DNA of 37,661 nt from the IMG/VR virus record IMGVR_UViG_2526164599_000009, positions 1 through 37,661 of that record. The stretch is one strand, 5' to 3'. Under the pieces are notes generated by a model. The model saw nothing but the letters and a program-made list of their open reading frames with translations. It made no database searches and had not been told where the DNA came from. Source of the DNA: a virus. Lineage: Duplodnaviria; Heunggongvirae; Uroviricota; Caudoviricetes. Of this stretch, positions 1 to 37,661 are shown in pieces. How positions within the stretch are numbered: position 1 is the first letter of the stretch; each line of letters opens with the position of its first letter. The position numbers were made by a program, and so were the translations under genes.

Positions 1-1002
1 TTACCCTCTATTGTCAAAAGGGTTCAATTCAACAGCAGCCTCTAAATGACCTGGAGCAAAATGCGCATAACGCATAGTCATTTTTATATCGCTATGCCCC
101 AGTATTTTTTGCAACACAAGAATATTTCCGCCCCGCATCATAAAATGACTGGCAAACGTGTGACGTAGCACATGAGTTAATTGCCCATCAGGAAGCTCGA
201 TCTTCGCTCTCTTAATTGCAGCGTCAAAAGCCTCATAACATGGTGAAAATAGCGCTCCTCGTTTTTTAGGAAGCATAGCCTGCAATTGAGGTGAAATCGG
301 TACAGTGCGGTTCTTCTTTCCTTTAGTTTTAACAAATGTGATTCGACCGGGCAGTACTTGAGATTGCTTTAATCCTTCTGCTTCACTCCACCGAGCACCC
401 GTCGCAAGCCCAATACGGACAACAACCCCCAAATCTTTATTCCGTGACTCATCACACGCAATCAGAAGGCGCTCAATCTCATCTACATACAGAAACGCCA
501 GTTCCTTTTCTTCCTCACGAAACTTGCGAATACCAGTCAGGGGGTTTTCACCAGACCACTCCCCAAGGCGCTTCAGTTCGGCAAAAACAGCATGTAGATA
601 TGACTGCTCGCGATTAACGGTTGCTTCACTAAGTTTTTTCTTCCCCTTGGGATTCCATTCTCCAGATAGCCTTCTTTCCCGATAAGTAGCAAACATATTT
701 TTGTCAAACTGAGAAGCAAATGGATCTCCCAGCCTGGAACAAATCGCCTCAAGTTTGACTTTGCGCTCTGCACCAGAGGACAAGGTTTTACCGTACATCT
801 CAAACCAACGAGCAATCAACTCAGAAAGACGAGGACCAGAACCATCTTGAAACTCGTCTCCAACTCTACTATTCATTAAACGGCGCTCATAAGAGAGCGC
901 CTCACTTTTTGTCGCAAACTGTTTACGTATGCGTTTTCCCGATGCCCCGTAGGGATAACATTCGCAAAGCCATTTACCTGATGGAATCTTACGAACCGAC
1001 AT
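1..1002 (-). CDS. int: Phage integrase, tyrosine recombinase (P2/186-type)
   Basis: 333-aa ORF with C-terminal catalytic region HVLRHTFASHF...LGHSDIKMTMRYAH typical of tyrosine recombinases; recalled resemblance to phage 186 Int; stop codon at bases 1-3. Confidence 0.9.
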   Translation of the reverse strand: MSVRKIPSGKWLCECYPYGASGKRIRKQFATKSEALSYERRLMNSRVGDEFQDGSGPRLSELIARWFEMYGKTLSSGAERKVKLEAICSRLGDPFASQFDKNMFATYRERRLSGEWNPKGKKKLSEATVNREQSYLHAVFAELKRLGEWSGENPLTGIRKFREEEKELAFLYVDEIERLLIACDESRNKDLGVVVRIGLATGARWSEAEGLKQSQVLPGRITFVKTKGKKNRTVPISPQLQAMLPKKRGALFSPCYEAFDAAIKRAKIELPDGQLTHVLRHTFASHFMMRGGNILVLQKILGHSDIKMTMRYAHFAPGHLEAAVELNPFDNRG

Positions 1003-6273: not shown

Positions 6274-9096
6274 ATGACGGCAGAGTACATCAGGGACTGG
6301 CAACAACCGCGCCACGCAGTGGGGCGTGAAGGAACGGGGATCCCCGCTCCTGAATCCGCGCTTTCCTCCTGGCTGGATGCCTACCGGGTAGAGAACGAGC
6401 GCCGCCAGGAAATGGCTGATGCGGCGTTCTCCGCAACGCCGCTGGGCAACCTGATTAATAAAAGCCTGGACGCACAGGAAAAACAGGACAAAACCATCAC
6501 ACTGGCAGGAGACGCCAGAAAACAGGCACGCGGTGCGGTGGATGAAGCCATGGCCTCGCTGCGCCTGCTGCCGTCCTATCTGCGCGATCCGCTTATTCGC
6601 CACCTCTCCTTCCTGCGCAAAAAACAGGAAGCCGATCGTCAGAAAGGCAAAAAGAGCTGGCAGGCTGAACGCTACGCGCGCGGAAACCTGCGCAAAATAT
6701 TCGAACGTCTGGAGCGCACCGATCACCGCTGGCTGACACAGGGTTATCGCTCCCTTGCCGGACGCGAACGCCTGGACGATTTGCTTTACCTGCCGCAGCT
6801 CAACAAACACCAGATACAGACGCTGGCCACCATGACGGCGGCGATGTTCAGCAGCACCTTCGAAAAACTCTGCGATGGCTTTGGCGCGACCGATGGCGAA
6901 CTGACCATGGATGTAACGCTGAAGGCGTATCAGATGCTGGCCCGCATGGCGTTACACCTGCACGCCATGCCTCCACATTATGACGCACTGACAACAGACA
7001 AAGACCGGAGGAACGAACCGGACACGGAGCTGCTGCCGGGCGCAATCCTTCGCCTGACCTGTGCGGAATGGTGGAAACGCAAACTGTGGCTGTTACGTTG
7101 CGAGTGGAGAGAAGAACAACTCCGCGCCGCCTGTCTGGTTTCCAGAAAAACATCGCCCTATCTGAGCCAGGACGCGTTAAGCGAGTTTCGCGCACAGCGC
7201 GAGAAAACACGCGATTTCCTGAAAAGTTTCATGCTGGAAAACGAAGACGGGTTCACGATTGATCTCGAGACAGTGTATTACGCGGGAGTAAGTAACCCGG
7301 TTCACCGTAAGGCAGAAATGATGGCCACCATGAAGGGGCTGGAACTTCTGGCCGAAGCCCGTGGCGACAAAGCGGTGTTTCTGACTGTCACCTGCCCGTC
7401 AAAATACCACGCTACAACAGAGAACGGTCATCCGAATCCCAAATGGAACGGGGCCACCATGCGCGACTCCAGCGATTACCTGGTTAACACGTTTTTTGCG
7501 GCGGTCCGCAAGAAACTGAACCGCGACGGCCTGCGCTGGTATGGCATCCGCACGGTGGAGCCTCACCATGACGGCACCGTGCACTGGCATATGATGGTCT
7601 TTGCTCATCCGGAAGAAATCGACACCATTGTGTCCCACACCCGCGATATTGCCATTCAGGAAGATCGTCACGAGCTGGGCGATGATATTACTCCGCGCTT
7701 TAAGGCGGAGTATGTCGACGGCTCAAAAGGCACGCCAACCAGCTACATCGCCACCTACATCGGAAAAAACCTGGACAGCCGCGCCGTGGATGGCATCGAC
7801 CCGAAAACAGGCAAACCACGCGTTGACCACGAAACCGGAAAATCAATGACCGAGAGCGTGGAACGCGCCATTGGCTGGGCGCGCCTTCACCGGGTCCGCC
7901 AGTTCCAGTTCTTTGGCATCCCCTCCCGTCAGGTGTGGCGTGAACTGCGTCGCCTTGCCAGCCAGATGGCACGCAACCCGGAAGGCCCGCAACGGCTGAA
8001 GGATGACGCAATGGATGCGGTTCTTGCTGCCGCTGATGCCGGATGTTTTGCCACCTACATTGAGAAACAGGGCGGCGTACTTGTTCCACGCAAAGACTAC
8101 CTGATTCGCACCGCCTACGACCTCGCCGATGAGCTGAACGATTACGGCGAACAGAGCGTACAGATTTACGGGATCTGGTCACCACTCATCGGGGAATCCT
8201 CCCGTGTGTGCACGCATCCGGATAACTGGAAGCTGGTAAGACGCAAACCGGAAGCGGAAGACAGCGCCCGCGAAAATGGTTTTGACCTTCAGGGCGGCCC
8301 TGCCGCCCCTTGGACTCGTGGCAATAACTGTCCCCGTGTACAGGAAACAGACAACAACGGGACAGAACAGCCGGAAGAACGGCCAGCACCGTGGCCGCAG
8401 CTCCCTGACGGCGTTGAAGTGAACGAATGGATGCGCTCACTGAAACGGCACGAACGCCGGGCGCTGATGCGTTCGCTTCGTGACAAACAGGCAAAAAACA
8501 GCCGTGATGAAATGCAGAGCTGGACACAGAGCCGCAAACAGCAGCGGCCTTTGCCTGATAACCACGAATTACTCGCTAAAGAATGGCGGGAGTCTGCTGA
8601 ATCTCTCGGCCTGCATATCGGTGAACAGCAGATGCAGCACCTGTTACGGGGCGGCAGTCTGTACGTTGACGGCAGCATCATTGCACCGCAGGGATTTGAA
8701 ATTGTACGCAAACCGGATACCCGACCGGACAGCCGGATCACGCAGCTCTGGCAGCGCCTGAGCCGTAACCACGGCGTAAGCAGCACGGAGATCCGCCATA
8801 ACCCGGTCGCCAGCTATCTGGAACAGCTGGGGGCATCAGACCCCGAAGCCGCCGCACGCCTGGCATCCACACTTCAGCAAGACCAGAACACCATGAAAAC
8901 ACCCGTTACCGTGCTTTCTGACATGCTGCGCGCCATCCGCGACGCAGAGCACGCACAGAGAATCAGTGAAACCACTGAACGCGCCCACCGCAAAGCAGAC
9001 CTGCTGCGGGGTGGCCTGACCAGTGGAAACAAAAAACAGACAGAAACGGGATTCACAAATCCCGTAAATGAGCAAAAAACGCGCCGCGATATATGA
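6274..9096 (+). CDS. A: Rolling-circle replication initiator (P2 gpA-like, HUH endonuclease)
   Basis: 940-aa ORF; HUH-type motif HWHMMVF and tyrosine motif YIATYIGKNLD; position matches P2 A; about 180 aa longer than P2 A as recalled. Confidence 0.85.
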   Translation: MTAEYIRDWQQPRHAVGREGTGIPAPESALSSWLDAYRVENERRQEMADAAFSATPLGNLINKSLDAQEKQDKTITLAGDARKQARGAVDEAMASLRLLPSYLRDPLIRHLSFLRKKQEADRQKGKKSWQAERYARGNLRKIFERLERTDHRWLTQGYRSLAGRERLDDLLYLPQLNKHQIQTLATMTAAMFSSTFEKLCDGFGATDGELTMDVTLKAYQMLARMALHLHAMPPHYDALTTDKDRRNEPDTELLPGAILRLTCAEWWKRKLWLLRCEWREEQLRAACLVSRKTSPYLSQDALSEFRAQREKTRDFLKSFMLENEDGFTIDLETVYYAGVSNPVHRKAEMMATMKGLELLAEARGDKAVFLTVTCPSKYHATTENGHPNPKWNGATMRDSSDYLVNTFFAAVRKKLNRDGLRWYGIRTVEPHHDGTVHWHMMVFAHPEEIDTIVSHTRDIAIQEDRHELGDDITPRFKAEYVDGSKGTPTSYIATYIGKNLDSRAVDGIDPKTGKPRVDHETGKSMTESVERAIGWARLHRVRQFQFFGIPSRQVWRELRRLASQMARNPEGPQRLKDDAMDAVLAAADAGCFATYIEKQGGVLVPRKDYLIRTAYDLADELNDYGEQSVQIYGIWSPLIGESSRVCTHPDNWKLVRRKPEAEDSARENGFDLQGGPAAPWTRGNNCPRVQETDNNGTEQPEERPAPWPQLPDGVEVNEWMRSLKRHERRALMRSLRDKQAKNSRDEMQSWTQSRKQQRPLPDNHELLAKEWRESAESLGLHIGEQQMQHLLRGGSLYVDGSIIAPQGFEIVRKPDTRPDSRITQLWQRLSRNHGVSSTEIRHNPVASYLEQLGASDPEAAARLASTLQQDQNTMKTPVTVLSDMLRAIRDAEHAQRISETTERAHRKADLLRGGLTSGNKKQTETGFTNPVNEQKTRRDI

Positions 9097-9144
9097 AGCG
9101 CGCATAAAACAGGCAAAAACGGGATTTCAGAATCCCGTAAACGA
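9041..9144. repeat. Two copies of a palindrome-containing repeat (candidate parC-like centromere/operator)
   Basis: ACGGGATT-N6-AATCCCGT palindrome at 9046-9067 (inside the 3' end of A) and again at 9119-9140, 73 bp apart, just upstream of the parM-like start. Confidence 0.35.
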
Positions 9145-9172
9145 TTAATTAATCAACATAAGGAAAAGCGAC

Positions 9173-10132
9173 ATGAAAATTTGTATCGATGACGGCTCCA
9201 CCAACATCAAGCTGGCATGGACTGAGAACGGCGAACGCCGCAACGCCATCAGCCCGAACAGCTTCAAGTCGGAATGGTCTGCGCCGTTCGGTGGCACGCA
9301 GCCCGCGAACTACATGCTTGATGGCGTGCGCTATGGTTTTGATCCGGTCAGCGATCGCTTTGTCCAGACGACCGACACGCAATACCAGTACAGCGATGTG
9401 AATGTCATTGCCATTCATCACGCGCTGGTCAAATCAGGCATCACACCACAGGAAGTGGATGTGGTTGTCACCCTGCCACTGAGCGAATATTTCGACACAA
9501 ACGCACAGCCGGACATGCCCAACATCAACCGCAAAAAAGCGAACGTTATGCGCCCGGTGGAGTACCAGAACGGCGAAGCATTCACTATCCGTAACGTGCG
9601 GGTTATGCCTGAATCCATTCCGGCTGGCTTTAAGGCACTGGCTGACATGAGTCCGTTTGAATCCCTGCTGATTGTGGATTTGGGCGGAACCACGCTGGAT
9701 GTGGCAAAGGTTCAGGGGCAACTGGCAGGTATCAGCCAGGTGTTTTGCGACCCACACGTAGGCGTTTCTCTGATGGCCGATGCCGTACTGTCGGTGATGG
9801 CCACTAACGGTATGCGCACCAGTCACCACATCGCCAATACCATTATCGAACATCGCCATGATGAAGCCTGGCTGCGCCAGCACATCCACAATGACGCGCA
9901 TTACGCCAGCCTGATGGCGGTTATTCGTGAAAAGGAAGAAACACTGAAACAACGCGTGATCCGCGCGCTGGCGGGTTTTTCGGGTTACGGGCGGGTGATG
10001 GTTGTCGGTGGCGGGGCGGAGATTGTGGCACCCGCTATCCGCGAAGCCTGCGGAGTTAATGCGACTTTCATCGCGGACGGGGTGCCACAGTTTGCTCTGG
10101 TTAATGGGCTGTACGCAATGGACAAGGAGTAA
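9173..10132 (+). CDS. parM: ParM/StbA-family actin-like segregation ATPase
   Basis: 319-aa ORF; MKICIDDGSTNIKLAW, SDVNVIAIHHAL, VMPESIPAG, LIVDLGGTTLD and MVVGGGAE match the plasmid R1 ParM signature as recalled. Confidence 0.85.
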   Translation: MKICIDDGSTNIKLAWTENGERRNAISPNSFKSEWSAPFGGTQPANYMLDGVRYGFDPVSDRFVQTTDTQYQYSDVNVIAIHHALVKSGITPQEVDVVVTLPLSEYFDTNAQPDMPNINRKKANVMRPVEYQNGEAFTIRNVRVMPESIPAGFKALADMSPFESLLIVDLGGTTLDVAKVQGQLAGISQVFCDPHVGVSLMADAVLSVMATNGMRTSHHIANTIIEHRHDEAWLRQHIHNDAHYASLMAVIREKEETLKQRVIRALAGFSGYGRVMVVGGGAEIVAPAIREACGVNATFIADGVPQFALVNGLYAMDKE

Positions 10133-10136
10133 ACCA

Positions 10137-10448
10137 ATGACGACACCAACCAGACGAATAAGTTTCTATCTGAAGCCCGCCGCCGTCAAGAACGAAGGCG
10201 AAGCATGCGCCTGGCTGGACAGCCTTACACCAGAAGCCCGCAAAAGCGGCCAACGTGTGGCTTTTCTGGCCGGGCTGGCACTTCTGAAAATGAATCCGGC
10301 AGAGGCTTACCGACTGGCTGCATGGGCTGATGATGAAGCGTTATCAGTGACACAAACCAGGACAGAACGCCCCGCATCACAGCCAGTATCAACCGCACAG
10401 ATAACCAGTCAGATGGCCGGAAATATCCGGGCGTTATTTCCCGAATAA
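10137..10448 (+). CDS. parR: ParR-like centromere-binding adaptor (putative)
   Basis: ATG 10137 after RBS AGGAG; RRISFYLKP...LDSLTPEARKSGQRVAFLAGLALL...IRALFPE parallels R1 ParR as recalled; directly downstream of parM. Confidence 0.65.
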   Translation: MTTPTRRISFYLKPAAVKNEGEACAWLDSLTPEARKSGQRVAFLAGLALLKMNPAEAYRLAAWADDEALSVTQTRTERPASQPVSTAQITSQMAGNIRALFPE

Positions 10449-10511
10449 TACAACATCAGGGCGCATCCGCCCTGATGACTTTAATCCGGGAACACAAACA
10501 AAGGGGACACA

Positions 10512-10844
10512 ATGCAACACATTGACAGAGAAAAAGCGCAGCGACTGATTGAGCGGATGGAAGCGCTGGCGAAAGAAGAAAATGTCAACATCCAAAAAAT
10601 AGCTGAATGTGGCCAGATAGTTCTTCGTCGTGAAAAAGACCTCAAACAACTGATGTCTGGCGAAACCAGCAAAACATGGACTTCAGGCGAGGAAACGATT
10701 TATTGCAGCTTCTGCAATAAATCCCAGTACGAAGTCACAAAGGTGATTGCTGGACCGTCTGTTTACATCTGCAATGAGTGCGTGGATTTGTGCAATGAAA
10801 TTATCAGGAGAGAAGTGGCAGACAAAAAGGGAAAAAACACATGA
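10512..10844 (+). CDS. Small protein with ClpX-type C4 zinc-binding domain
   Basis: [38 protein letters not shown] is near-identical in pattern to the ClpX N-terminal zinc finger; about 65-aa helical N-terminal region; no AAA+ module. Confidence 0.75.
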
Positions 10845-11155
10845 ACAGAAAACAAAAACAAGAGTTGAAATACTTTTTACGTAAAGAAATTGCCAGGCTT
10901 GAAGATGCAGAATCACGATCATCAGAAATTCCGTTCGGAATGGATATCAACGACGCCCGTATGCTCCAGGCATACCGTATAGCTCAGGCTGTACTACAGG
11001 CAAAACCGTCAGATGGACTGGTTAGAGCAGTACGTTTCTATGAACTGGTAAAACGTGAGAATCCGCCAACCGAAACCGGAGCATGGAAAGACGCTGTTGA
11101 CTGGGTGCTCAAAGAGGCTTGCCAAGCTGTAAACATTGACATCAAAGGAGAGTGA
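10841..11155 (+). CDS. Hypothetical protein
   Basis: 104-aa ORF overlapping the upstream stop by 4 bp. Confidence 0.5.
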
Positions 11156-11156
11156 T

Positions 11157-11444
11157 ATGGCAACTTTGCAGGAATTAATCGACCTGACGCCAGAACAGGA
11201 AAAAGCGTGGAATCGCCTTGTGAAGGCTGTAAAGGATTTCAGGGCAGCCGGAGGAAAGTTTTATAGCGTCCTGGACACGCTGAGCGCATACAACGGCGAG
11301 CACGTTGCCAGCATTGATAACGATAAGGGCTACCACACTGCAAGCGTTTATATGCCTAGCATTGATGCGCCAGGGCTAACCAGTTGGGCTGATGATTGGC
11401 ACGGCATCACGCTGAAAGATGGCGTTGAAGTGGATGAGGACTAA
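11157..11444 (+). CDS. Hypothetical acidic protein
   Basis: ATG 11157 after RBS AAAGGAG. Confidence 0.5.
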   Translation: MATLQELIDLTPEQEKAWNRLVKAVKDFRAAGGKFYSVLDTLSAYNGEHVASIDNDKGYHTASVYMPSIDAPGLTSWADDWHGITLKDGVEVDED

Positions 11445-11447
11445 CAC

Positions 11448-11708
11448 ATGACAACTTTCACCGACAAAGAACTGATTAAAGAAATCAAAGAGCGCATAGG
11501 CAGCTTGGACGTTCGAGACAATATTGAGCGCCGTGCTTATGAAATTGCACTGGCATCACTGGAAGCAGAGCCAGTAGCATGGATGCATGTAAATAACGGC
11601 ATCGGAATACCAGCAATAACAAGGAGTAAAGAGGTTGCAGAGAGTTGGTTATCAAAAGGCTGGTATGTCCAACCCTTGCATCTGGCCCAGCCTGCATCAA
11701 AGCTATAG
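11448..11708 (+). CDS. Hypothetical protein
   Basis: 86-aa ORF 3 bp after previous stop; last gene of the operon. Confidence 0.5.
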   Translation: MTTFTDKELIKEIKERIGSLDVRDNIERRAYEIALASLEAEPVAWMHVNNGIGIPAITRSKEVAESWLSKGWYVQPLHLAQPASKL

Positions 11709-11717
11709 AAATAAGCC

Positions 11718-11746
11718 AAAACGCCCTCTTCCTGGGCGTTTATTTT
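11718..11746 (+). terminator. Intrinsic terminator ending the accessory operon
   Basis: stem AACGCCC / GGGCGTT (11720-11740) with 7-nt loop, followed by TATTTT. Confidence 0.55.
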
Positions 11747-11748
11747 AA

Positions 11749-11847
11749 TGCACAATAGTGCACAAATTTGCACAATTTTTTTGAACGACTTTTTACCCTT
11801 CCGACCCCCGTGGCGGCTGGATCCGTCAAGGATCCGTGCGTGCACAA
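11749..11847. repeat. Phased TGCACAA heptamer repeats in the predicted cos-proximal region
   Basis: TGCACAA at 11749, 11759 and 11769 (exact 10-bp phasing), fourth copy at 11841; GGATCCGT direct repeat at 11819-11838. Confidence 0.3.
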
Positions 11848-12148
11848 AAAAACGCGTTTTTTCTGCGCGCAGGTGACGGGGGAACAGCCCGCGTTTCAGG
11901 GGGTAAATAGCGTTCCCTTAACGATGTCGCAGCGACACGACAGAATGGCCGTATTTCTCACGCTGAGCGTGAAAAATACGTGAGGGATTCTGGTTTGATG
12001 GGGTGAAAGGTAAGGCCGTCAAAATCGCACTGAGGCGGCGAGAACATGCAGTCAGCGCAGTGGGATTGCGTAAGAGTCTGACCGTCGATGATGGCAATAA
12101 GCAGGAAAGCGTCGTGAAATTATCTGACTGATACAGGAGCTGGAGAGT

Positions 12149-12173
12149 CGGGGCATAAATTTTTTATGCCCCG
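12149..12173 (-). terminator. Hairpin downstream of the portal gene (candidate terminator)
   Basis: inverted repeat CGGGGCATAAA / TTTATGCCCCG just 3' of the minus-strand Q stop; no clear U-tract. Confidence 0.3.
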
Positions 12174-12199
12174 GCGAAGCAGCAGACAAGCGAAGCGCG

Positions 12200-13246
12200 T
12201 CAGGATGTGGGCTGGGTATCTAACAGTGCGTAAGGGTTAAAGCGGATCACCTCTTCGCCAAGCCAGTCATTGATATGCTTCATGGCCTCCATGACGGGCA
12301 TCAGCTCGTTAATTGCGTAAACCCGCGCGGCCTTCTCCACATCACCAAACGCACTTTTTTCGCCCGGCATCGCCCCCATCAGTTGCGGCGGAACGCGGTG
12401 CGCAGCCAGCACATCATCACGGGATGCCGCCTTAACATTCATGAACTCATCTTTTGCGGTGATCTGCTGGAACGGCAAAATTTGCACCCCCTCTTTGCCC
12501 CCGTTGGGCGCATGAATGAGCACGTTTTTAAACGCACCACCACCACGTGCCCCCTGTAGCGTTTCTTTCAGGGAGTCCATGCTTTCGCGGTTTACCTGCG
12601 CTGCACCGATGTAGATGATGCACCCGGCGTGGGATCCGTTGTCGTAGTACAGTTTTCTGAACATGTCCGCCGAATGAGAAAGGCTGGCCGAGAGTAATGC
12701 GCCAAGATATTCCGGCATGCCGTAAATTTCCTGGTTAATGTCCGGATTCATCAGGTGGCACACTTTGCCAGGGCGAAACTGAAACGCGTCCTTGCCATCC
12801 TGCACATACCACCATGATTCAAGATCGCTTCCGCGTCGCACGTATTTCGCCAGTGCGTGCCGTAATTTAAGTGGTTCGCCGAGCATATTACTCCGAAGCT
12901 CAAGGAATGCGTTACCGAACACAAACCAGTCCAGCGCCAGCGCCGAGAAATCCTGCCGGGAAAGCAGCGGGTGCGGGATGTAGCAACCGAGCAATACATT
13001 GCGCTTAAAGTAAAGCGCAGACTGATGCCAGGACGTTTGCCGGGCGGCTCTTGCCAGACCGTACCAGTCCACCGGGGTTTCATACCACCGCCCGTTATCA
13101 GCACAGTACATATTGTCCAGCAGGTCATGCCCGGTCAGGCGATAAGGACCATCAAATGTGAATGCACTGAGCGATGATTCTTTCCTGAGCGCATCAGCGA
13201 GATCAATGCGTGAACTCATGCGCACTTTTTTATTTTTTCTGCTCAT
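12200..13246 (-). CDS. Q: Portal protein (P2 gpQ-like)
   Basis: 348-aa ORF, size and position as P2 Q; downstream of and overlapping the terminase large subunit gene. Confidence 0.85.
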   Translation of the reverse strand: MSRKNKKVRMSSRIDLADALRKESSLSAFTFDGPYRLTGHDLLDNMYCADNGRWYETPVDWYGLARAARQTSWHQSALYFKRNVLLGCYIPHPLLSRQDFSALALDWFVFGNAFLELRSNMLGEPLKLRHALAKYVRRGSDLESWWYVQDGKDAFQFRPGKVCHLMNPDINQEIYGMPEYLGALLSASLSHSADMFRKLYYDNGSHAGCIIYIGAAQVNRESMDSLKETLQGARGGGAFKNVLIHAPNGGKEGVQILPFQQITAKDEFMNVKAASRDDVLAAHRVPPQLMGAMPGEKSAFGDVEKAARVYAINELMPVMEAMKHINDWLGEEVIRFNPYALLDTQPTS

Positions 13247-14997
13247 CAGAACTCCATAACCGTGAAACGCTCGTTTTCTCCTTCGCCGCCAATTGGTTCG
13301 TTAATGACAGCAAGCATGGTTGCCCACGCAAGGTCGCCGTGGCTGATCCCCCTCGCGCGGTCCGTTTCGTAAGTGATAAAGCCGCCCGGTGTTTTCACCT
13401 TACGCACGGCGTTAAAGGCCGCGACCAGCTCGCGTTCGGCGCGATCGTATTCCCACCGTCCGGCACGCATTATTTGCAGCATTTTCAGTACCAGCGACCG
13501 TTTGGATGACAGCGTGAAGGTGTACGGAATAGCAGCAGGGAAAAACCGCTTCACTATCTGATAAACAGCCTCCCCGTTCCCGCCCGTCACATCAATGCCG
13601 ATGTGTTCCACGTTGTAGCTACACGTGAACTCTTCAATGACTCTGGCCTGTTCTTCAAACTCCAGCCCCTGAACGCGTCGCGTCTCCACCGTTCGAAAAC
13701 GGCCACCAGGAACAGCCGGAGGAACCACCACGGACACAGCGCCGCTGTCGCCGTTGCCACTGCTGCCGTTTGCGTCATACCCAATCCATACCGGACGATT
13801 CCCCATCGGGCGGGGAGCAAAAGGTTTCCAGTCTTTCCAGTCGTCGTATCCGTCAACACCGCAGCCAATCAGGATATTCAGGTTAAATGCCGATTCCCCT
13901 TCGCGGACAAACTCACACATATAGAGATTGCGGAACTCGTCTTCGGTGTTTTCATCACGAATTTCGTCAATATCGGTGTGTTTCCAGCCGTGATTAACCA
14001 CATCTTCCAGCGTGACAATTTGCCGCCACGTCCGGTCAGGGCAGATAAGCCCGTTATGCAGCGTTTTCCAGTCCACAGAAAAACGCTGGCGTTTATGCGT
14101 GGCCTTTTTCTCGTTCCAGCGGTCGCCGTTCCAGTAGGCGTATGCCTCGTGCGTTTCGGTGGATGGCGTGGAGAAGTAGGTGCGCCGCAGTCCGCTGAGG
14201 GTTGCCATAGCGCCAGCCACCTTGCGCAGTTCAGCAAAGCGGCTGACCCAGAAAAATTCATCAAAATAAAAATTGCCCGTGTAGGACTGTGCCGTCGCAG
14301 CAGAAGTACCAAGAAAATGCAGCTCTGCACCGTTGGAGAGGATGATTTTATCGCCCCCTTTCAGCTCCACATCAACTTCAGATGCAGCCTTCTGAATAAT
14401 GCTTTTAAACTGGAACGCCTGACGACGCGACGCAGACAAAAAAATCTGGTTACGCTGGTAAGGTTGCGTCACATCGTCACGCAGCGCCATCAGCAGTGCT
14501 TCCTGTGCAAAATACCAGGTCGCCCCAATCTGTCGGGATTTCAGGATCATCCTGTTACGTATCCCGGCTTCCCTGCAAAGGGTCAGGGAGTCAAACCAGC
14601 CCCGCTGATGCCACTCCAGCCTGCTGATGATTTTTTCCCGCAGTGCGGCAATCTGTTCCGGCGTGAAATGATTTTTGAGTTTTTTCGCCCGGCCTTTCTT
14701 TCCTGCGGCCATCACATCCGGCTGGCCATCATGCAGCTTTTTAAGCTGCCGGGTCAGCAGGTCTATTTCCTTAAAGTCACCGCCTGTTTTATTCTGTTTT
14801 TCAGTAAGCTGGATGAGGCGCGCATCGATGGACTGCGTGACACGCTGCACGGGTGGCGTTTCATCCCACTGGTCGCGTTTTTTCCACGCATAAATCGTGT
14901 TCGGGTTTATTCCCATCAGACGTGATATTTCTGCGGGCGGATAACCCTGCCAGTAAAGTTGCCGCGCACGTTGGCGCACAAAAGCGTCCTGAATCAT
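13246..14997 (-). CDS. P: Terminase large (ATPase) subunit (P2 gpP-like)
   Basis: 583-aa ORF; N-terminus MIQDAFVRQRARQLYWQGY and size match P2 P as recalled. Confidence 0.9.
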   Translation of the reverse strand: MIQDAFVRQRARQLYWQGYPPAEISRLMGINPNTIYAWKKRDQWDETPPVQRVTQSIDARLIQLTEKQNKTGGDFKEIDLLTRQLKKLHDGQPDVMAAGKKGRAKKLKNHFTPEQIAALREKIISRLEWHQRGWFDSLTLCREAGIRNRMILKSRQIGATWYFAQEALLMALRDDVTQPYQRNQIFLSASRRQAFQFKSIIQKAASEVDVELKGGDKIILSNGAELHFLGTSAATAQSYTGNFYFDEFFWVSRFAELRKVAGAMATLSGLRRTYFSTPSTETHEAYAYWNGDRWNEKKATHKRQRFSVDWKTLHNGLICPDRTWRQIVTLEDVVNHGWKHTDIDEIRDENTEDEFRNLYMCEFVREGESAFNLNILIGCGVDGYDDWKDWKPFAPRPMGNRPVWIGYDANGSSGNGDSGAVSVVVPPAVPGGRFRTVETRRVQGLEFEEQARVIEEFTCSYNVEHIGIDVTGGNGEAVYQIVKRFFPAAIPYTFTLSSKRSLVLKMLQIMRAGRWEYDRAERELVAAFNAVRKVKTPGGFITYETDRARGISHGDLAWATMLAVINEPIGGEGENERFTVMEF

Positions 14998-15152
14998 TGC
15001 TCCCCCTGAGTAATTACAGGAAGATTACCCGCGCGCGAAACCGTTCTCCTTAACCCCCTGTTCTGGCCGTTTTCTTACAACAAAAGCCCTTTGTATCAGC
15101 CTGTTACGCTTTGCCATCATGACTGAAGAACCAGTCAGAGGGGCAAAAAACT
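14998..15152. promoter_or_regulatory. Divergent late promoter region (P and O operons)
   Basis: intergenic region between divergent packaging/head operons as in P2; TGT-N11-ACG near-match to the recalled Ogr dyad, exact site not resolved. Confidence 0.3.
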
Positions 15153-15989
15153 ATGGCTAATGAAAAAAAGACATCCCGCAAAAAGTTTCGCGTGGCTGTC
15201 TCTGGATCAACTGTTGATGGCCGTGAAATCAGTCCGGTGCATCTGCGTGAAGCCGCCGAGAACTTCAATCCGGATGTTTACGCTGCCCGCGTGAACGTTG
15301 AGCACTATCTCTCGCCATGCCCGTCAAGCGAATTTTCCGCAATGGGCGATGTCACCGCACTGAGTACGGAAGACATTACGGAAGGTCCGCTGGCCGGACG
15401 TACTGCGCTGTATGCAGAAATCGAACCGACCGAGCGCATGAAGCAGCTTGTCGCGGACGGCAAGAAAATCTATTCCAGTATCGAACTGCACCCGCAGTTC
15501 TCCGTTAACGGGCGCGCCTATCTGGTCGGGCTGGCGATGACCGACACCCCGGCAAGCCTGGGCACTGAGCGCCTGAAATTTACGGCACAGCAACGTCAGG
15601 CGGTAATGACGTTCAACAGTGTCCAGGGTGAAGCACCGCTTATCTCCGAAGCCATCGAGTCTGAAATCATCGAAATGGCAGAACAACGCCAGGAAGAAGG
15701 CACCCAGTGGTTTAACCGCGTAATGGGGATTATTGGTCGTGGCCGCAAAGCGGATGACGCCAGTTTCTCCCGTATTCAGGAAGCGCTGGAAGGCGTCGCA
15801 ACGTCACAGGCCGACATTATCGACCGTTTTAATGTGCTGGAAACCCGCCATCAGCAGGACAGCCAGAAAATCACGTCACTGACCACAGAGCTGACAGCAC
15901 TGAAGGAAAAACTGCGCACGCAGGACGGCGATCCGCAGAACCGGTTCACCGCAACAGGTGCAGCCTCCGACCAGCTGGCTGACTTCTGA
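15153..15989 (+). CDS. O: Capsid scaffold protein (P2 gpO-like)
   Basis: 278-aa ORF at the P2 O position. Confidence 0.8.
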   Translation: MANEKKTSRKKFRVAVSGSTVDGREISPVHLREAAENFNPDVYAARVNVEHYLSPCPSSEFSAMGDVTALSTEDITEGPLAGRTALYAEIEPTERMKQLVADGKKIYSSIELHPQFSVNGRAYLVGLAMTDTPASLGTERLKFTAQQRQAVMTFNSVQGEAPLISEAIESEIIEMAEQRQEEGTQWFNRVMGIIGRGRKADDASFSRIQEALEGVATSQADIIDRFNVLETRHQQDSQKITSLTTELTALKEKLRTQDGDPQNRFTATGAASDQLADF

Positions 15990-16012
15990 TAAGACAAAGG
16001 AGCAAATTTTTT

Positions 16013-17065
16013 ATGAATCTGGTGATGTCAGATATTACCCGCAACAAGCTGGGTTGCTATATGGCGCAGCAGGCGTCGCTTAACAATATCCCGGTATCTG
16101 CACTGGTATCGCGATTTACCGTGGAACCCTCGGTGCAGCAGCGTTTTGAAAACGCAGTAAAGGAGAGCACTGAATTTACAAAAAAAATTAACGTGTTCGG
16201 TGTGACCGACCAGAAAGGCGAAAAAATCCTCCTGGACACCACCGGGCCGATTGCGCGCACGAATACCAGTTATGACGGCACAAAACGCCGTAACCCGAAT
16301 AACGTGGTTGATCTGAAAAACCGCAAATACCAGTGCGAACAGGTGAACTACGACACGTTTATTTCGTATCCGCAGCTTGATGCCTGGGCGGCACACCCTG
16401 ATTTTCAGTCCCGCGTCAGCACACAGATTGCCCGGCAGGTGGCGCTTGACCGCATCATGATCGGTTTCAACGGCACGTCTCACGCAGATGAGTCCAACTT
16501 CAGCACTAACAAGCTGCTTCAGGACGTTAACGTGGGGTGGCTGGAGCACATCAGAACCGACGCCAGCGAGCGCGTTATGAATGACGTGACGCTGACCTCC
16601 CGCAACATGGACAACACAGTGGCGCACGCGGGTAAGTATGCGAACGCTGATGCACTGGTACAGGACGCGCGCTCATCCCTGCTGGATGAATGGCACAAGG
16701 AAGCTGACGACCTCGTGGTGATTATGGGGCGCAACCTGTTTAACTCGCTGCGTCTGCCCGTGCTGAACAGCATCAGCGGCCAGAATCCCAATGCGGAATT
16801 ACTTGCCGGACAGCTCATCCTGTCATCGCGCGCCATTGGCGGGCTGGATGTATTCCTTGCGCCATTCTTCCCGGATGCAACGATGCTGATCACCTCGTTC
16901 AACAACCTGTCAATTTACTGGCAGAAAGGAACAATGCGTCGCCTGATGAAAGACGAGCCGGAATACAACCGCATCGCCACCTACCAGTCCATCAATGACG
17001 CTTATGTCGTTGAAGACTATGGCAAGTGCGCGATGGTCACTGGCCTGAAGTTCGCCGACAGCTAA
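16013..17065 (+). CDS. N: Major capsid protein (P2 gpN-like)
   Basis: 350-aa ORF; KFTVEPSV, MIGFNG, LQDVNVGWL, PFFPDATMLIT and YVVEDY match P2 N as recalled. Confidence 0.9.
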   Translation: MNLVMSDITRNKLGCYMAQQASLNNIPVSALVSRFTVEPSVQQRFENAVKESTEFTKKINVFGVTDQKGEKILLDTTGPIARTNTSYDGTKRRNPNNVVDLKNRKYQCEQVNYDTFISYPQLDAWAAHPDFQSRVSTQIARQVALDRIMIGFNGTSHADESNFSTNKLLQDVNVGWLEHIRTDASERVMNDVTLTSRNMDNTVAHAGKYANADALVQDARSSLLDEWHKEADDLVVIMGRNLFNSLRLPVLNSISGQNPNAELLAGQLILSSRAIGGLDVFLAPFFPDATMLITSFNNLSIYWQKGTMRRLMKDEPEYNRIATYQSINDAYVVEDYGKCAMVTGLKFADS

Positions 17066-17110
17066 TCAACTCACGGCGGGCATCATGCCCGCCTGTAACG
17101 GAGAGAAAAA

Positions 17111-17911
17111 ATGATTACTCCTGCACAACAACACTGGCAGAACGTGATGGCACAGCGCGCAGGCCGGGCGAATGAAGGCGTGGACCACGCCGCGCGTACC
17201 GCGCATGAAGAGGTGCTGTATCGTCTGCGTCTGGCGCAGACCCGGCTTAAGGGCGTACAGGCCAGAAGCGCGAAAGCCGCCATCAAAAAAGAGTTGTTGC
17301 CGGACTTTTCTGGCTGGATTGAGGGAACGCTGGAGGCTGACGGCGGGCAACAGGACGAAGTGATTGCCACGCTGATGGTGTGGGCGATTGACTGCGGCGA
17401 TCTTCCGCTTGCGCTGCGTATTGGTGCGTATGTGGTCCGTCACAACCTCATCATGCCGGATAACTTTGGCCGTACTGCTGCCACGGTACTGACCGAAGAA
17501 ATCTGTAATCCGGTACTGACGCAGGCCGGGACGGATGCCGACGCGGATTTGTCCGCCTTTATCGAACCACTGGACACCCTCCGGGAGATTGTCACCGACC
17601 AGGACATGCCGGACGAAGTGCGCGCCAAATTATGCAAGGCGTGCGCCTTTGCCCGCCGTGGCCTGAGTGATGCGGACAGCATGGCCCTGTCACTGAAGCT
17701 GCTGCGCGAAGCGATGCACCTGACCCCGAACGCAGGTGTGAAACGCGAGATTGCAACCCTTTCCCGCGCCCTGAAAAAAGCCGATTCCGCAGCCGCACCA
17801 GAAGATGCCAGCACACCGCAGGCGCAGGACGAAAGCAGCAAAAGTAAAAAGACAACGCGGAAGCCTGCAACACGAAAAACCACCGCGACGCAGAAGGCGA
17901 AGCGCGGTTAA
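17111..17911 (+). CDS. M: Terminase small/endonuclease subunit (P2 gpM-like)
   Basis: 266-aa ORF; MPDEVRAKL motif and basic Lys/Arg-rich C-terminus as in P2 M. Confidence 0.8.
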   Translation: MITPAQQHWQNVMAQRAGRANEGVDHAARTAHEEVLYRLRLAQTRLKGVQARSAKAAIKKELLPDFSGWIEGTLEADGGQQDEVIATLMVWAIDCGDLPLALRIGAYVVRHNLIMPDNFGRTAATVLTEEICNPVLTQAGTDADADLSAFIEPLDTLREIVTDQDMPDEVRAKLCKACAFARRGLSDADSMALSLKLLREAMHLTPNAGVKREIATLSRALKKADSAAAPEDASTPQAQDESSKSKKTTRKPATRKTTATQKAKRG

Positions 17912-34505: not shown

Positions 34506-34662
34506 AGCTTTAGCCCCTTGTATCCGTTAAATGATTCGGCAACAATCATCACCCACCACGCGCGTAATCTCACCCCTGTGCCGTTCTCCCGATCCGGCGA
34601 CAACAAAAAGCAGTAACCCCCTCCGCACGCACATGCGACCATGCCGCACAGGGAGGGAACAG
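34506..34662. promoter_or_regulatory. Divergent promoter region between FI operon and D
   Basis: 157-bp intergenic region between divergent late genes; promoter elements not resolved. Confidence 0.3.
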
Positions 34663-36447: not shown

Positions 36448-36774
36448 ATGACTAAAAATACTCGTTTTTCCCCCGAAGTCCGTCAGAGGGCGATTCGTAT
36501 GGTTCTGGAAAGTCAGGGCGAATATGACTCACAGTGGGCGGCAATTTGTTCCATTGCCCCAAAGATTGACTGTACACCGGAGACTCTGCGTGTCTGGGTA
36601 CGCCAGCATGAGCGGGATACCGGAGGCGGTGATGGCGGGCTCACCACCGCTGAACGTCAGCGTCTGAAAGAGCTGGAACGTGAAAATCGTGAACTGCGCC
36701 GCAGTAACGATATCCTTCGCCAGGCTTCCGCTTATTTTGCGAAGGCGGAGTTCGACCGCCTCTGGAAAAAGTGA
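36448..36774 (+). CDS. IS3-family transposase OrfA (HTH, leucine zipper)
   Basis: [22 protein letters not shown]...[29 protein letters not shown] matches IS629-group OrfA as recalled. Confidence 0.85.
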
Positions 36775-37661
36775 TGCCACTGCTGGATAAGCTGCGTAAG
36801 CTGTACGGGGTCGGACCGGTATGCAGTGAACTACATATTGCCCCGTCAACGTATTACCACTGTCAGCAACAGCGACATCATCCTGATAAACGCAGTGCCC
36901 GTGCGCAGCGCGATGACTGGCTGAAGAAAGAGATACTGCGCGTATACGATGGGAATCATCAGGTATACGGTGTGCGTAAAGTCTGGCGTCAGTTGTTACG
37001 GGAAGGAATCAGGGTAGCCAGATGTACAGTGGCGCGCCTCATGGCGGTTATGGGACTTGCCGGTGTTCTCCGGGGTAAAAAGGTCCGCACTACCGTCAGC
37101 CGGAAAGCCGTTGCCGCAGGCGACCGCGTAAACCGTCAGTTTGTGGCAGAACGTCCTGACCAGTTGTGGGTGGCTGATTTTACTTACGTCAGCACATGGC
37201 AGGGGGTCGTCTATGTGGCGTTCATCATTGATGTGTTTGCCGGATACATCGTGGGGTGGCGGGTCTCATCGTCTATGGAAACGACATTCGTGCTGGATGC
37301 TCTGGAGCAGGCGTTATGGGCCCGTCGACCGTCCGGCACAGTCCATCACAGTGATAAAGGTTCTCAGTATGTATCGCTGGCCTACACACAGCGGCTTAAG
37401 GAAGCCGGATTACTGGCATCAACAGGAAGTACTGGTGACTCGTATGACAACGCGATGGCGGAGAGCATCAATGGCCTTTACAAAGCGGAGGTAATACACC
37501 GTAAGAGCTGGAAAAACCGGACAGAAGTGGAGCTGGCCACACTCACGTGGGTGGACTGGTATAACAATCGACGATTGCTGGGAAGGCTGGGCCATACTCC
37601 TCCGGCAGAAGCAGAAAAAGCTTATTATGCTTCCATCGGAAACGATGATCTGGCAGCCTGA
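36771..37661 (+). CDS. IS3-family transposase OrfB (DDE catalytic domain)
   Basis: -1 frame relative to orf[18 protein letters not shown] and [13 protein letters not shown] motifs; stop at the last 3 bases of the window. Confidence 0.85.

What the first reader, a model, noticed from the sequence alone, without database searches (positions are those of the whole stretch)
9041..10448. Plasmid-type ParM/ParR actin-like partition cassette inside an integrative P2-like prophage
The 319-aa protein carries the ParM/StbA signature and the following 103-aa protein resembles ParR. Partition systems are expected on plasmids and plasmid-prophages, not on a phage with a tyrosine integrase and a flanking chromosomal context. 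The cassette may stabilise an episomal phase, position phage DNA, or act as accessory cargo at the A-to-cos hotspot.
Basis: partly seen in the sequence, partly recalled or inferred. Interest (0 to 1): 0.65.

Follow-up and report, generated by a model that had tools for sequence, protein, structure and literature searches.

The report
ParM/ParR partition cassette in P2-like prophage
This is a real, intact plasmid-type (actin-like ParM plus ParR adaptor) DNA-segregation cassette in the cargo hotspot of a P2-family prophage, but it is present in about a quarter of E. coli genomes, is already annotated and mentioned in the literature, and only its biological role remains untested.

Summary
parM lies at 9173-10132 (319 aa) and parR at 10137-10448 (103 aa). 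ParM is a full-length relative of plasmid R1 ParM (46.5% identity) and keeps the nucleotide-binding motifs. ParR belongs to the StbB/ParR family. It has a conserved N-terminal DNA-reading strand and a conserved C-terminal tail that aligns with the C-terminus of R1 ParR.

Upstream lie two 20-bp dyads (CGGG-N10-CCCG, 73 bp apart). This is a minimal candidate centromere or operator, unlike R1's ten iterons. The same two-site layout recurs in Plesiomonas and Hafnia P2-like prophages.

The cassette (about 8997-10448) is swappable cargo between the replication gene gpA and the portal gene of a P88-like (Xuanwuvirus) prophage.

It is not rare. It occurs in 1307 of 5426 complete E. coli genomes: 1453 chromosomal copies and 2 on plasmids. 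RefSeq annotates it as ParM and a partitioning protein. Rousset et al. 2022 already noted that about a quarter of P2-like phages carry it.

parM is under strong purifying selection (dN/dS 0.07).

The most likely role is moving or segregating the circular phage DNA while it is extrachromosomal. Stable plasmid carriage is poorly supported. No experiment on its function was found.

The parts
8997..9045 (+). Left edge of the swappable cassette, inside the last ~33 codons of gpA
   Evidence: Homology (95%) to a parMR-less sibling prophage (E. coli AR_0013, L021) stops at about window 8996. The gpA C-terminal tails then differ completely. dN/dS of these last 32 gpA codons is 0.59.
9030..9144 (.). 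Candidate parC (centromere/operator) region: two 42-nt direct repeats (9030-9071, 9103-9144; 81% alike), each holding one dyad
   Evidence: A-tracts flank each dyad (read directly from the sequence).
9046..9065 (.). Dyad site 1, ACGGGATTCACAAATCCCGT (core CGGG-N10-CCCG), overlapping the gpA 3' end
   Evidence: Equivalent sites at the same relative position in Plesiomonas (L013 5869) and Hafnia (L014 5872) prophages.
9119..9138 (.). Dyad site 2, ACGGGATTTCAGAATCCCGT, 73 bp from site 1 (about 7 helical turns) and 35 bp upstream of the parM ATG
   Evidence: The 72-73 bp spacing is conserved in L013 and L014.
9160..9164 (+). Shine-Dalgarno AAGGA for parM, preceded by the conserved ATTAATCAA (9144-9152)
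   Evidence: Read from the sequence. The ATTAATCAA..AAGGA stretch is shared with L013 and L014.
9173..10132 (+). parM: actin-fold segregation ATPase, 319 aa
   Evidence: Motifs DDGSTNIKL, DLGGTTLD (R1 D170 equivalent) and GGGAE are conserved in the alignment. dN/dS 0.07.
10137..10448 (+). parR: centromere-binding adaptor, 103 aa. N-terminal strand TRRISFYLKP, two or three helices, hypervariable linker (about residues 67-93), conserved C-terminal NI[RQ]A[LF]FPE.
   Evidence: It starts 4 nt after the parM stop.
10454..10477 (.). Strong hairpin (10-bp stem, -18.4 kcal/mol, z -5.95) just after parR; probable end of the operon. The right edge of the cassette lies at about the parR stop.
   Evidence: Coverage classes end at query 1419, which is window 10448.
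6274..9096 (+). Context: gpA rolling-circle replication endonuclease, directly upstream on the same strand
   Evidence: Pfam Phage_GPA E 1.9e-131. No + strand terminator-like site between gpA and parM.
12200..13246 (-). Context: portal protein gpQ, the right border of the hotspot
1..1002 (-). Context: tyrosine integrase
   Evidence: Pfam Int_N and Phage_integrase.

Best explanation
The region is a complete, selectively maintained type II (ParM/ParR/parC-type) DNA-segregation cassette. It is carried as exchangeable cargo in the gpA-gpQ hotspot of a P88-like (Xuanwuvirus, Peduoviridae) integrative prophage.

Shown here: ParM is an R1-ParM-like actin-fold ATPase with intact nucleotide-binding motifs. 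ParR is a StbB/ParR-family protein. The cassette carries its own pair of upstream dyad sites. It belongs to a ParM clade found so far only in this position of P2-like prophages. parM is under strong purifying selection.

Inferred mechanism: ParR dimers read the two CGGG-N10-CCCG dyads through the conserved N-terminal strand. The dyads lie on the same DNA face, 73 bp apart, so ParR would form a small segrosome that also autoregulates the operon. The conserved C-terminal helix of ParR captures the ends of ATP-ParM filaments. Filament growth then pushes apart copies of the phage DNA that carry the sites.

The substrate can only be circular phage DNA outside the chromosome: after infection, or after excision while gpA replicates it as monomeric circles. 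The likely benefit is that dividing cells do not lose the element, or that copies are spread through the cell, during these transient phases. This resembles srpMRC on SXT/R391 ICEs. It is not a permanent plasmid lifestyle.

Confidence is about 0.95 for what the cassette is and about 0.5 for what it acts on and why. The figure given combines the two.
For: Identity: Pfam, PHROG and PDB matches. The ParR profile hits the solved pB171 ParR (2jd3): E 2e-13 with R1 ParR in the profile, E 0.0033 with prophage ParRs only. The ParR C-terminal motif aligns with the R1 ParR C-terminus KKNAMKLIN, and N96 is invariant.

cis sites: the two dyads are unique in the window. The same CGGG-N10-CCC[GA] pair, 72-73 bp apart, occurs upstream of parM in Plesiomonas and Hafnia prophages whose ParM is only 62-63% identical. 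There the sites do not form stable hairpins, which argues for protein-bound DNA rather than RNA structure. In the Serratia/Enterobacter subclade the ParR strand changes (NRKISFYL), and the sites change with it to a 19-20-bp inverted repeat with a conserved 28-nt gap.

Module boundary: the break inside gpA places site 1 in the cassette.

Selection: parM dN/dS is 0.07 and parR 0.24-0.29. The ORFs are intact even in IS-decayed prophages of O157:H7 and O111.

Lineage: the relatives at 54-63% identity whose context was looked up all lie between gpA and the portal gene of P2-like prophages. In an NJ tree they form one clade apart from R1 and plasmid ParMs.

Linkage to replication: parM follows gpA on the same strand with no terminator-like site between them.

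Precedent: srpMRC, with only four 13-bp repeats, stabilises the excised, replicating form of an integrative element (PMC4489591).
Against: No experiment on this cassette was found in the library.

Two sites are far fewer than the ten iterons of R1 parC (L017). They may be only an operator.

No sigma-70 consensus promoter was found, so it is unknown when the genes are expressed.

About three quarters of P2-like phages lack the cassette (PMC9122126). A sibling with the same backbone carries other cargo. The cassette is therefore dispensable for replication and lysogeny.

P2-type replication from gpA is, by established P2 biology, tied to lytic development. The window of time in which partition could matter may be short.

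The cassette lies in a hotspot rich in anti-phage systems, which leaves room for a conflict-related role.
Confidence: 0.6

Rival explanations
1. Plasmid-prophage lifestyle: the cassette lets these P2-like phages persist for many generations as low-copy plasmids instead of integrating. This is the speculation of Rousset et al. and of the first reader.
For: The components are plasmid-type. One 34.5-kb circular replicon, pZ1323PEC0009-2 (NZ_CP148288.1), is a whole P88-like genome deposited as a plasmid. The phage-plasmid D6 carries a ParM homologue at 47.8% identity.
Against: In complete E. coli genomes there are 1453 chromosomal copies and 2 on plasmids. The window's integrase/immunity module is chromosomal in 598 of 599 cases. 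The one circular record still encodes an integrase and may be an excised or induced circle caught by assembly. The other phage-sized 'plasmid' hit is a linear, IS-riddled fragment. No plasmid replicon is present. The only replication gene is gpA in the early lytic operon, which is repressed in lysogens (established P2 biology).
Confidence: 0.12
2. AlpAC-like role in the lytic cycle: ParM filaments anchored by ParR position or spread replicating phage circles, so that replication or packaging is efficient. Inheritance by daughter cells is not the point.
For: The cassette lies directly downstream of gpA on the same strand with no terminator-like site between them. Synteny with gpA is conserved across genera. 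CGP3 AlpAC is an early-induced actin-like protein plus adaptor that binds upstream of its own operon and is needed for efficient phage replication (PMC4446434). P2 packages monomeric circles (established knowledge), so many separate circles must be handled.
Against: Most P2-like phages do without the cassette, and the sibling backbone lacks it. The ORFs remain intact in prophage remnants that can no longer make virions.
Confidence: 0.2
3. Conflict function: expressed from the resident prophage, ParR and the dyad sites (with or without ParM) interfere with incoming related phages or plasmids that carry the same sites. This would be incompatibility used as exclusion, in keeping with the defence-rich hotspot.
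For: The gpA-gpQ locus is a hotspot of anti-phage systems (PMC9122126). ParR is far more diverse than ParM in E. coli: dozens of 90%-identity ParR clusters at 50-97% identity against four full-length ParM clusters. The linker is hypervariable, and there are two mosaic core types. The ORFs are retained in decayed prophages.
Against: No PADLOC model matches any protein of the cassette. The DNA-reading strand and the sites are conserved across ParR variants. The variation is therefore not in specificity, as an arms race over sites would predict. A disordered linker is expected to drift.
Confidence: 0.06
4. Inert hitch-hiker: a captured plasmid module with no current function.
For: It is dispensable cargo. 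The cis site is minimal.
Against: parM dN/dS is 0.07 at dS of about 0.10. The motifs are intact. The same position is kept in prophages whose ParM has diverged to 54-63% identity, and their sites co-vary with ParR.
Confidence: 0.02

Closest known systems
parMRC (stbAB) of plasmids R1/R100, the type II partition paradigm
   Same: The gene order is the same: cis site, then parM, then parR. ParM is 46.5% identical over 316 residues with conserved phosphate-1, phosphate-2 (D170 equivalent) and adenosine motifs. The ParR N-terminal domain is 34% identical, and the C-terminal motif aligns with the R1 ParR C-terminus.
   Different: R1 parC has two clusters of 11-bp direct iterons around a promoter, visible in L017. 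Here there are only two 20-bp dyads and no consensus promoter. ParR is shorter (103 versus 116-117 aa) and lacks the R1 mid-segment. The carrier is an integrative phage. ParM belongs to a separate, prophage-only clade.
The same cassette in Escherichia phage P88 (gp17/gp18), phiSM of Citrobacter rodentium and other Xuanwuvirus genomes, described as a 'putative plasmid partitioning system' of P2-like phages by Rousset et al. 2022
   Same: 98% nucleotide identity and 99.7% ParM identity, in the same position between gpA and the portal gene. It is already annotated and mentioned in print (PMC9122126; PMC6456863).
   Different: Nothing essential; this window is another copy. The published mentions give no analysis of sites, boundaries, phylogeny or function.
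srpMRC of SXT/R391 integrative conjugative elements
   Same: It is a ParM-type partition system on an integrative element. It has a small centromere of four 13-bp repeats upstream of the ATPase gene, and was shown to reduce loss of the excised, replicating form (PMC4489591).
   Different: SrpM and SrpR are only distantly related to ParM and ParR according to that paper. The element is conjugative, not viral. Sequence relatedness to the window's proteins was not tested here.
AlpAC/alpS of Corynebacterium glutamicum prophage CGP3
   Same: An integrated prophage encodes an actin-like filament former and a DNA-binding adaptor that binds upstream of their operon and links circular phage DNA to filaments (PMC4446434).
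   Different: The actin-like family and the host phylum differ. Its shown role is efficient phage replication after induction. No such data exist for the P2-like cassette.
StbA-type partition of phage-plasmid D6 (P1-like)
   Same: A ParM homologue (47.8% identity) on a temperate phage.
   Different: D6 is an obligate plasmid prophage of 91 kb. The window's phage integrates.

Membership tests
Type II (ParMRC) partition system | Actin-fold ATPase of the ParM/StbA family, full length | tested here: met
   Pfam StbA_N 273.7 bits and ParM C-terminal domain 230.5 bits. 1mwk E 9e-93 over residues 2-316. 46.5% identity.
Type II (ParMRC) partition system | Nucleotide-binding motifs intact (phosphate 1 DxGxxxxK, phosphate 2 DLGGTT with the R1 D170 equivalent, adenosine GGG) | tested here: met
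   IDDGSTNIKL, VDLGGTTLD and VGGGAEI align with the R1 residues. The importance of D170 is from established knowledge of R1 ParM.
Type II (ParMRC) partition system | ParR/StbB-family adaptor encoded immediately downstream | tested here: met
   Pfam PF10784, 85.9 bits against a cut-off of 25. 4-nt gap after parM. Profile hit to pB171 ParR 2jd3.
Type II (ParMRC) partition system | ParR N-terminal ribbon-helix-helix fold | tested here: inconclusive
   The AF2 monomer model has pLDDT 59. Helices 20-29, 32-52 and 54-61 are predicted, but the N-terminal strand is not formed, as expected without the dimer partner. Foldseek against the PDB found nothing.
Type II (ParMRC) partition system | ParR C-terminal peptide that docks on ParM | tested here: inconclusive
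   The conserved C-terminal helix 86-100 and the motif N-I-x-x-[LF]-F-P align with the R1 ParR C-terminus. Binding itself is not testable here.
Type II (ParMRC) partition system | cis-acting repeated ParR sites upstream of parM | tested here: met
   Two unique dyads at 9046-9065 and 9119-9138. They are conserved in layout in diverged relatives and co-vary with the ParR strand. That ParR binds them is inferred.
Type II (ParMRC) partition system | R1-style parC: about ten direct iterons in two clusters around the promoter | tested here: not met
   Only two sites are present, half-sites elsewhere occur at chance level, and no consensus promoter was found. Compare R1-type L017.
Type II (ParMRC) partition system | Stabilises an unstable replicon; ATP-dependent filaments | not testable with these tools
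   Requires a plasmid-loss assay and biochemistry or microscopy.
P2-like gpA-gpQ hotspot cargo (Rousset et al. 2022) | Located between the replication endonuclease gpA and the portal gpQ, and replaceable by other cargo | tested here: met
   PMC9122126.
Phage-plasmid | Maintained as an extrachromosomal replicon with a plasmid-type replication module | tested here: not met
   An integrase is present. 1453 chromosomal against 2 plasmid copies. No plasmid Rep gene is in the window; gpA is the only replication gene.
Known anti-phage defence systems | Match to a PADLOC model | tested here: not met
   No hit for ParM or ParR at E <= 0.1.
srpMRC (SXT/R391) and AlpAC (CGP3) | Sequence relatedness of the ATPase and the adaptor | not tested
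   Treated only as functional analogues from the papers.

The most novel reading that the evidence does not exclude
The P2-prophage ParMR clade, with its minimal two-site centromere fused to the 3' end of gpA, is a phage-adapted segregation machine whose real job is not plasmid maintenance. Either it organises gpA-made monomeric circles for replication and packaging, or it acts as an incompatibility-type weapon against related phages. In the second case the rapid diversification of ParR, set against a nearly invariant ParM, would reflect that conflict.
Probability: 0.25. Interest if true: 0.6.

Novelty: already known. Interest (0 to 1): 0.3.

Why it matters
About one in four E. coli genomes carries this actin-like segregation cassette inside an integrated phage, yet nobody appears to have tested what it does. 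If it stabilises or positions the extrachromosomal phage DNA, it would extend the 'integrative elements also partition' idea from ICEs to a major family of enterobacterial phages. It would also offer a compact ParMRC system, with two sites and a 103-aa adaptor, for mechanistic work. As a genome-scan finding it is ordinary: correctly recognised, already annotated and already noted in print.

Tried and rejected
1. The palindromes as RNA hairpins or minus-strand terminators. The scan flags them and the E. coli versions fold at -10 to -11 kcal/mol. The Plesiomonas and Hafnia equivalents keep only the outer CGGG/CCCG and the spacing, and do not fold well. I therefore rejected this in favour of protein-binding sites.

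2. Site 1 as part of the gpA gene or the origin. Rejected, because a sibling gpA loses homology 50 bp upstream of site 1 and lacks the motif.

3. Known RNA families in 8800-12300: none.

4. Defence-system models: none.

5. A sigma-70 promoter for parMR: none at consensus stringency. Timing of expression is unresolved.

6. ParR structure. The AF2 monomer model has low confidence and Foldseek against the PDB gave only noise. A single-sequence PDB search found nothing. Only profile searches reached pB171 ParR.

7. The genome-contig scan with the single ParM protein returned only 3 near-identical loci. One is labelled Vagococcus and is probably contamination. Diverged relatives came from the protein search and contig look-ups instead.

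8. PLSDB 'plasmid' hits as evidence for episomes. Most are very large records or a linear fragment. Only one circular 34.5-kb record is suggestive.

9. Literature searches for an experimental test found only annotations and one sentence of speculation.

Full report
**What is there**

Two adjacent + strand ORFs occupy the stated interval. parM runs 9173..10132 (319 aa). parR runs 10137..10448 (103 aa, counted from the ATG inside the mechanical TTG ORF 10002..10448).

ParM matches Pfam StbA_N (E 6e-82) and the ParM C-terminal domain (E 1.3e-68). It matches PHROG 691 'partition protein' end to end. It also matches the solved R1 ParM structures (1mwk and others, E 9e-93, residues 2-316). BLASTP identity to R1 ParM is 46.5%. 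In the alignment the phosphate-1 (IDDGSTNIKL), phosphate-2 (VDLGGTTLD, holding the equivalent of R1 D170) and adenosine (VGGGAEI) motifs are conserved.

ParR matches Pfam Plasmid_stab_B (85.9 bits, cut-off 25) and PHROG 2515 over its full length. As a single sequence it finds nothing in the PDB. Profiles do reach the solved pB171 ParR (2jd3): E 2e-13 with R1 ParR in the profile, and E 0.0033 with prophage ParRs only.

**Context**

The window is a P2-family prophage:
- Tyrosine integrase at 1..1002 (-) and an HTH immunity gene.
- gpA replication endonuclease at 6274..9096 (Pfam Phage_GPA, E 1.9e-131).
- Portal and terminase on the - strand from 12200, followed by head, lysis and tail genes.
- An IS3-family transposase at 36448..37661.

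The window is 94-98% identical to Escherichia phage P88 and other members of the genus Xuanwuvirus. In P88 the same two genes are gp17 'plasmid segregation protein ParM' and gp18 'partition protein'.

Integration is shown only by near-identical copies elsewhere:
- A related prophage lies next to pheA.
- The window's own integrase/immunity module lies between yecA and tRNA-Leu in strain AR_0013.

**How common and how well known**

The cassette occurs in 1307 of 5426 complete E. coli genomes. There are 1453 copies on chromosomes and 2 on plasmids, all annotated by PGAP as ParM plus a 'plasmid partitioning/stability family protein'.

Rousset et al. 2022 surveyed the gpA-gpQ hotspot. [quoted passage not shown] The phiSM paper lists it as a 'fitness' cargo gene (PMC6456863). 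I found no experimental test.

**The cis sites**

Upstream of parM lie two 42-nt direct repeats. Each holds a 20-bp palindrome: ACGGGATTCACAAATCCCGT (9046-9065) and ACGGGATTTCAGAATCCCGT (9119-9138). Their centres are 73 bp apart, about seven helical turns. They are the only matches in the window even with three mismatches allowed (0.13 expected). Isolated half-sites elsewhere occur at chance level.

Within E. coli-type copies the region is too similar overall for conservation to be informative. I therefore looked at diverged relatives:
- The next ParM relatives come from Plesiomonas (63% identity) and Hafnia (62%). Both lie between gpA and the portal gene of P2-like prophages.
- Both have two CGGG-N10-CCC[GA] sites 72-73 bp apart, at the same distance from parM.
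- Their inner bases are not self-complementary and fold poorly.

What is conserved is the outer tetramers, their spacing and the distance between sites. That pattern fits protein recognition and does not fit an RNA hairpin or terminator, although the scan does flag the E. coli versions as weak minus-strand terminators.

In a second subclade (Serratia 58%, Enterobacter 54%; also in the gpA-portal hotspot) two things change together. The ParR N-terminal strand differs (NRKISFYL instead of TRR[IV]SFYL). The sites are instead a 19-20-bp inverted repeat with a conserved 28-nt gap. This co-variation is indirect evidence that ParR reads these sites.

The layout differs from R1 parC, where two clusters of 11-bp direct iterons surround the promoter (L017). 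It is closer in size to srpC of SXT/R391, which has four 13-bp repeats and is functional (PMC4489591). No consensus sigma-70 promoter was found between 8800 and 12300. A conserved ATTAATCAA just after site 2 may be part of a promoter; this is inference only.

**Cassette boundaries**

A sibling prophage in E. coli AR_0013 has a 100% identical integrase/immunity module but carries a Dam methylase and an AAA ATPase in the hotspot.
- Its homology to the window (95%) ends at about 8996, roughly 100 bp before the gpA stop. The last ~33 gpA codons then differ completely, and the dyad motif is absent.
- Site 1 therefore belongs to the par cassette, not to gpA or its origin.
- The tail of gpA encoded over the site evolves under relaxed constraint (dN/dS 0.59).
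- On the right, coverage classes in E. coli genomes end at the parR stop (query 1419, which is window 10448). A strong hairpin follows at 10454-10477 (-18.4 kcal/mol, z -5.95).

The mobile unit is thus about 8997-10448: parC, parM and parR, and nothing else.

**Evolution**

parM is under strong purifying selection: mean dN/dS is 0.07 at dS of about 0.10 over 66 pairs. It forms only four full-length 90%-identity clusters above 91% identity.

ParR is much more varied. There are dozens of clusters at 50-97% identity. The strand TRRISFYLKP is invariant. The helical core comes in two types that recombine. The linker (about residues 67-93) is hypervariable. The tail N-I-x-x-[LF]-F-P is invariant. 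That tail aligns with the C-terminus of R1 ParR, KKNAMKLIN, which from established structural work on R1 is the ParM-docking peptide. parR dN/dS is 0.24-0.29.

An NJ tree of 107 ParM homologues places all the prophage-context sequences in one clade, apart from R1 and other plasmid ParMs. There is no bootstrap, so this is only suggestive. At 50% identity or below, the contexts examined are an ICE (Dickeya) and an integrated plasmid (Mangrovibacter). Both ORFs are intact even in IS-decayed P2-like remnants of O157:H7 and O111.

**How it most likely works**

Shown: all the protein and cis parts of a type II partition system are present, intact, selected and co-inherited with P2-like phages.

Inferred:
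- ParR dimers bind the two dyads, form a small segrosome and repress the operon.
- The ParR C-terminal helix (predicted at 86-100, low confidence) captures ATP-ParM filament ends.
- Filament growth moves the DNA.

An integrated copy cannot be partitioned separately from the chromosome, so the substrate must be circular phage DNA outside it. My preferred reading is an srpMRC-like one: the cassette acts after infection or excision, while gpA replicates the phage as circles, and reduces loss or spreads the copies (PMC4489591).

An AlpAC-like role in lytic replication (PMC4446434) is the main rival. It is favoured by the tight same-strand linkage to gpA, with no terminator between the genes.

A permanent plasmid lifestyle is poorly supported:
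- 1453 chromosomal against 2 plasmid copies, and 598 against 1 for the integrase module.
- No plasmid replicon is present.
- gpA sits in the repressed early operon.

The single suggestive record is a 34.5-kb circular 'plasmid' that is a whole P88-like genome with its integrase. Another phage-sized hit is only a linear fragment.

A conflict or exclusion role cannot be excluded, given the hotspot and the ParR diversity. It has no positive support: PADLOC finds nothing, and the DNA-reading strand and sites stay constant across ParR variants. An inert relic is contradicted by the selection data.

**Verdict**

The cassette is real, correctly identified and complete. It is ordinary in the sense of being abundant, annotated and already noted in the literature, with close functional precedents on other integrative elements.

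The modest additions from this work are:
- the two-dyad candidate parC and its conservation and co-variation across genera;
- the cassette boundary inside gpA;
- the apparent prophage-specific ParM clade;
- the contrast between a nearly invariant ParM and a diversifying ParR.

The function remains an open, easily testable question.

Noticed in passing
window 10512-10844 (+): The 110-aa protein just after parR has a ClpX-type C4 zinc finger (Pfam E 8e-18; NCBIfam clpX N-terminus E 2e-13) but no AAA+ domain. It is conserved in P88 (gp19). It could mimic or titrate the ClpX substrate/adaptor-binding domain.
   Followed up: no
window 10841-11708 (+): Three small ORFs (104, 95 and 86 aa) match only PHROGs of unknown function and complete the hotspot cargo before the cos/portal region. 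A bidirectional terminator-like hairpin lies at 11719-11741.
   Followed up: no
L021 (E. coli AR_0013, NZ_CP032204.1) 14583-17143: A sibling prophage with an identical integrase/immunity module carries a DNA adenine methylase plus an AAA-family ATPase in the same hotspot instead of parMR. This shows cassette swapping, with a breakpoint inside the gpA 3' end.
   Followed up: partly
L007 (O157:H7 F6667) and L008 (O111 RM9322): In these STEC lineages the P2-like prophage is decayed: an IS3 insertion, gpA truncated in O111, and late genes deleted in O157. parM and parR nevertheless remain intact ORFs.
   Followed up: partly
L002 (NZ_CP148288.1, pZ1323PEC0009-2, 34,461 bp circular): A complete P88-like phage genome (integrase, cox, gpA, parMR, structural genes, Hok/Gef, Com/methylase) is deposited as a plasmid of a cat E. 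coli isolate. It is either a genuine episome or an excised circle captured by the assembly.
   Followed up: partly
L004 (NZ_JBQPOM010000071.1, 'Vagococcus sp. WN89Y'): A 226-kb contig labelled as a Gram-positive Vagococcus carries a ParM 98% identical to the E. coli prophage one. This is most likely contamination or mislabelling of the assembly.
   Followed up: no
window 36448-37661 (+): IS3-family transposase orfA/orfB (HTH_Tnp_1; rve) forms the right end of the window, beyond the gpD-like gene at 34531-35772. The window therefore ends in an IS, not in host DNA.
   Followed up: no
ParR residues ~67-93 (window 10335-10415): The ParR linker is hypervariable and rich in Pro and Gln. The helical core exists in two allelic types with mosaic recombinants (for example P0147 and P0148), while ParM is nearly invariant.
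   Followed up: partly
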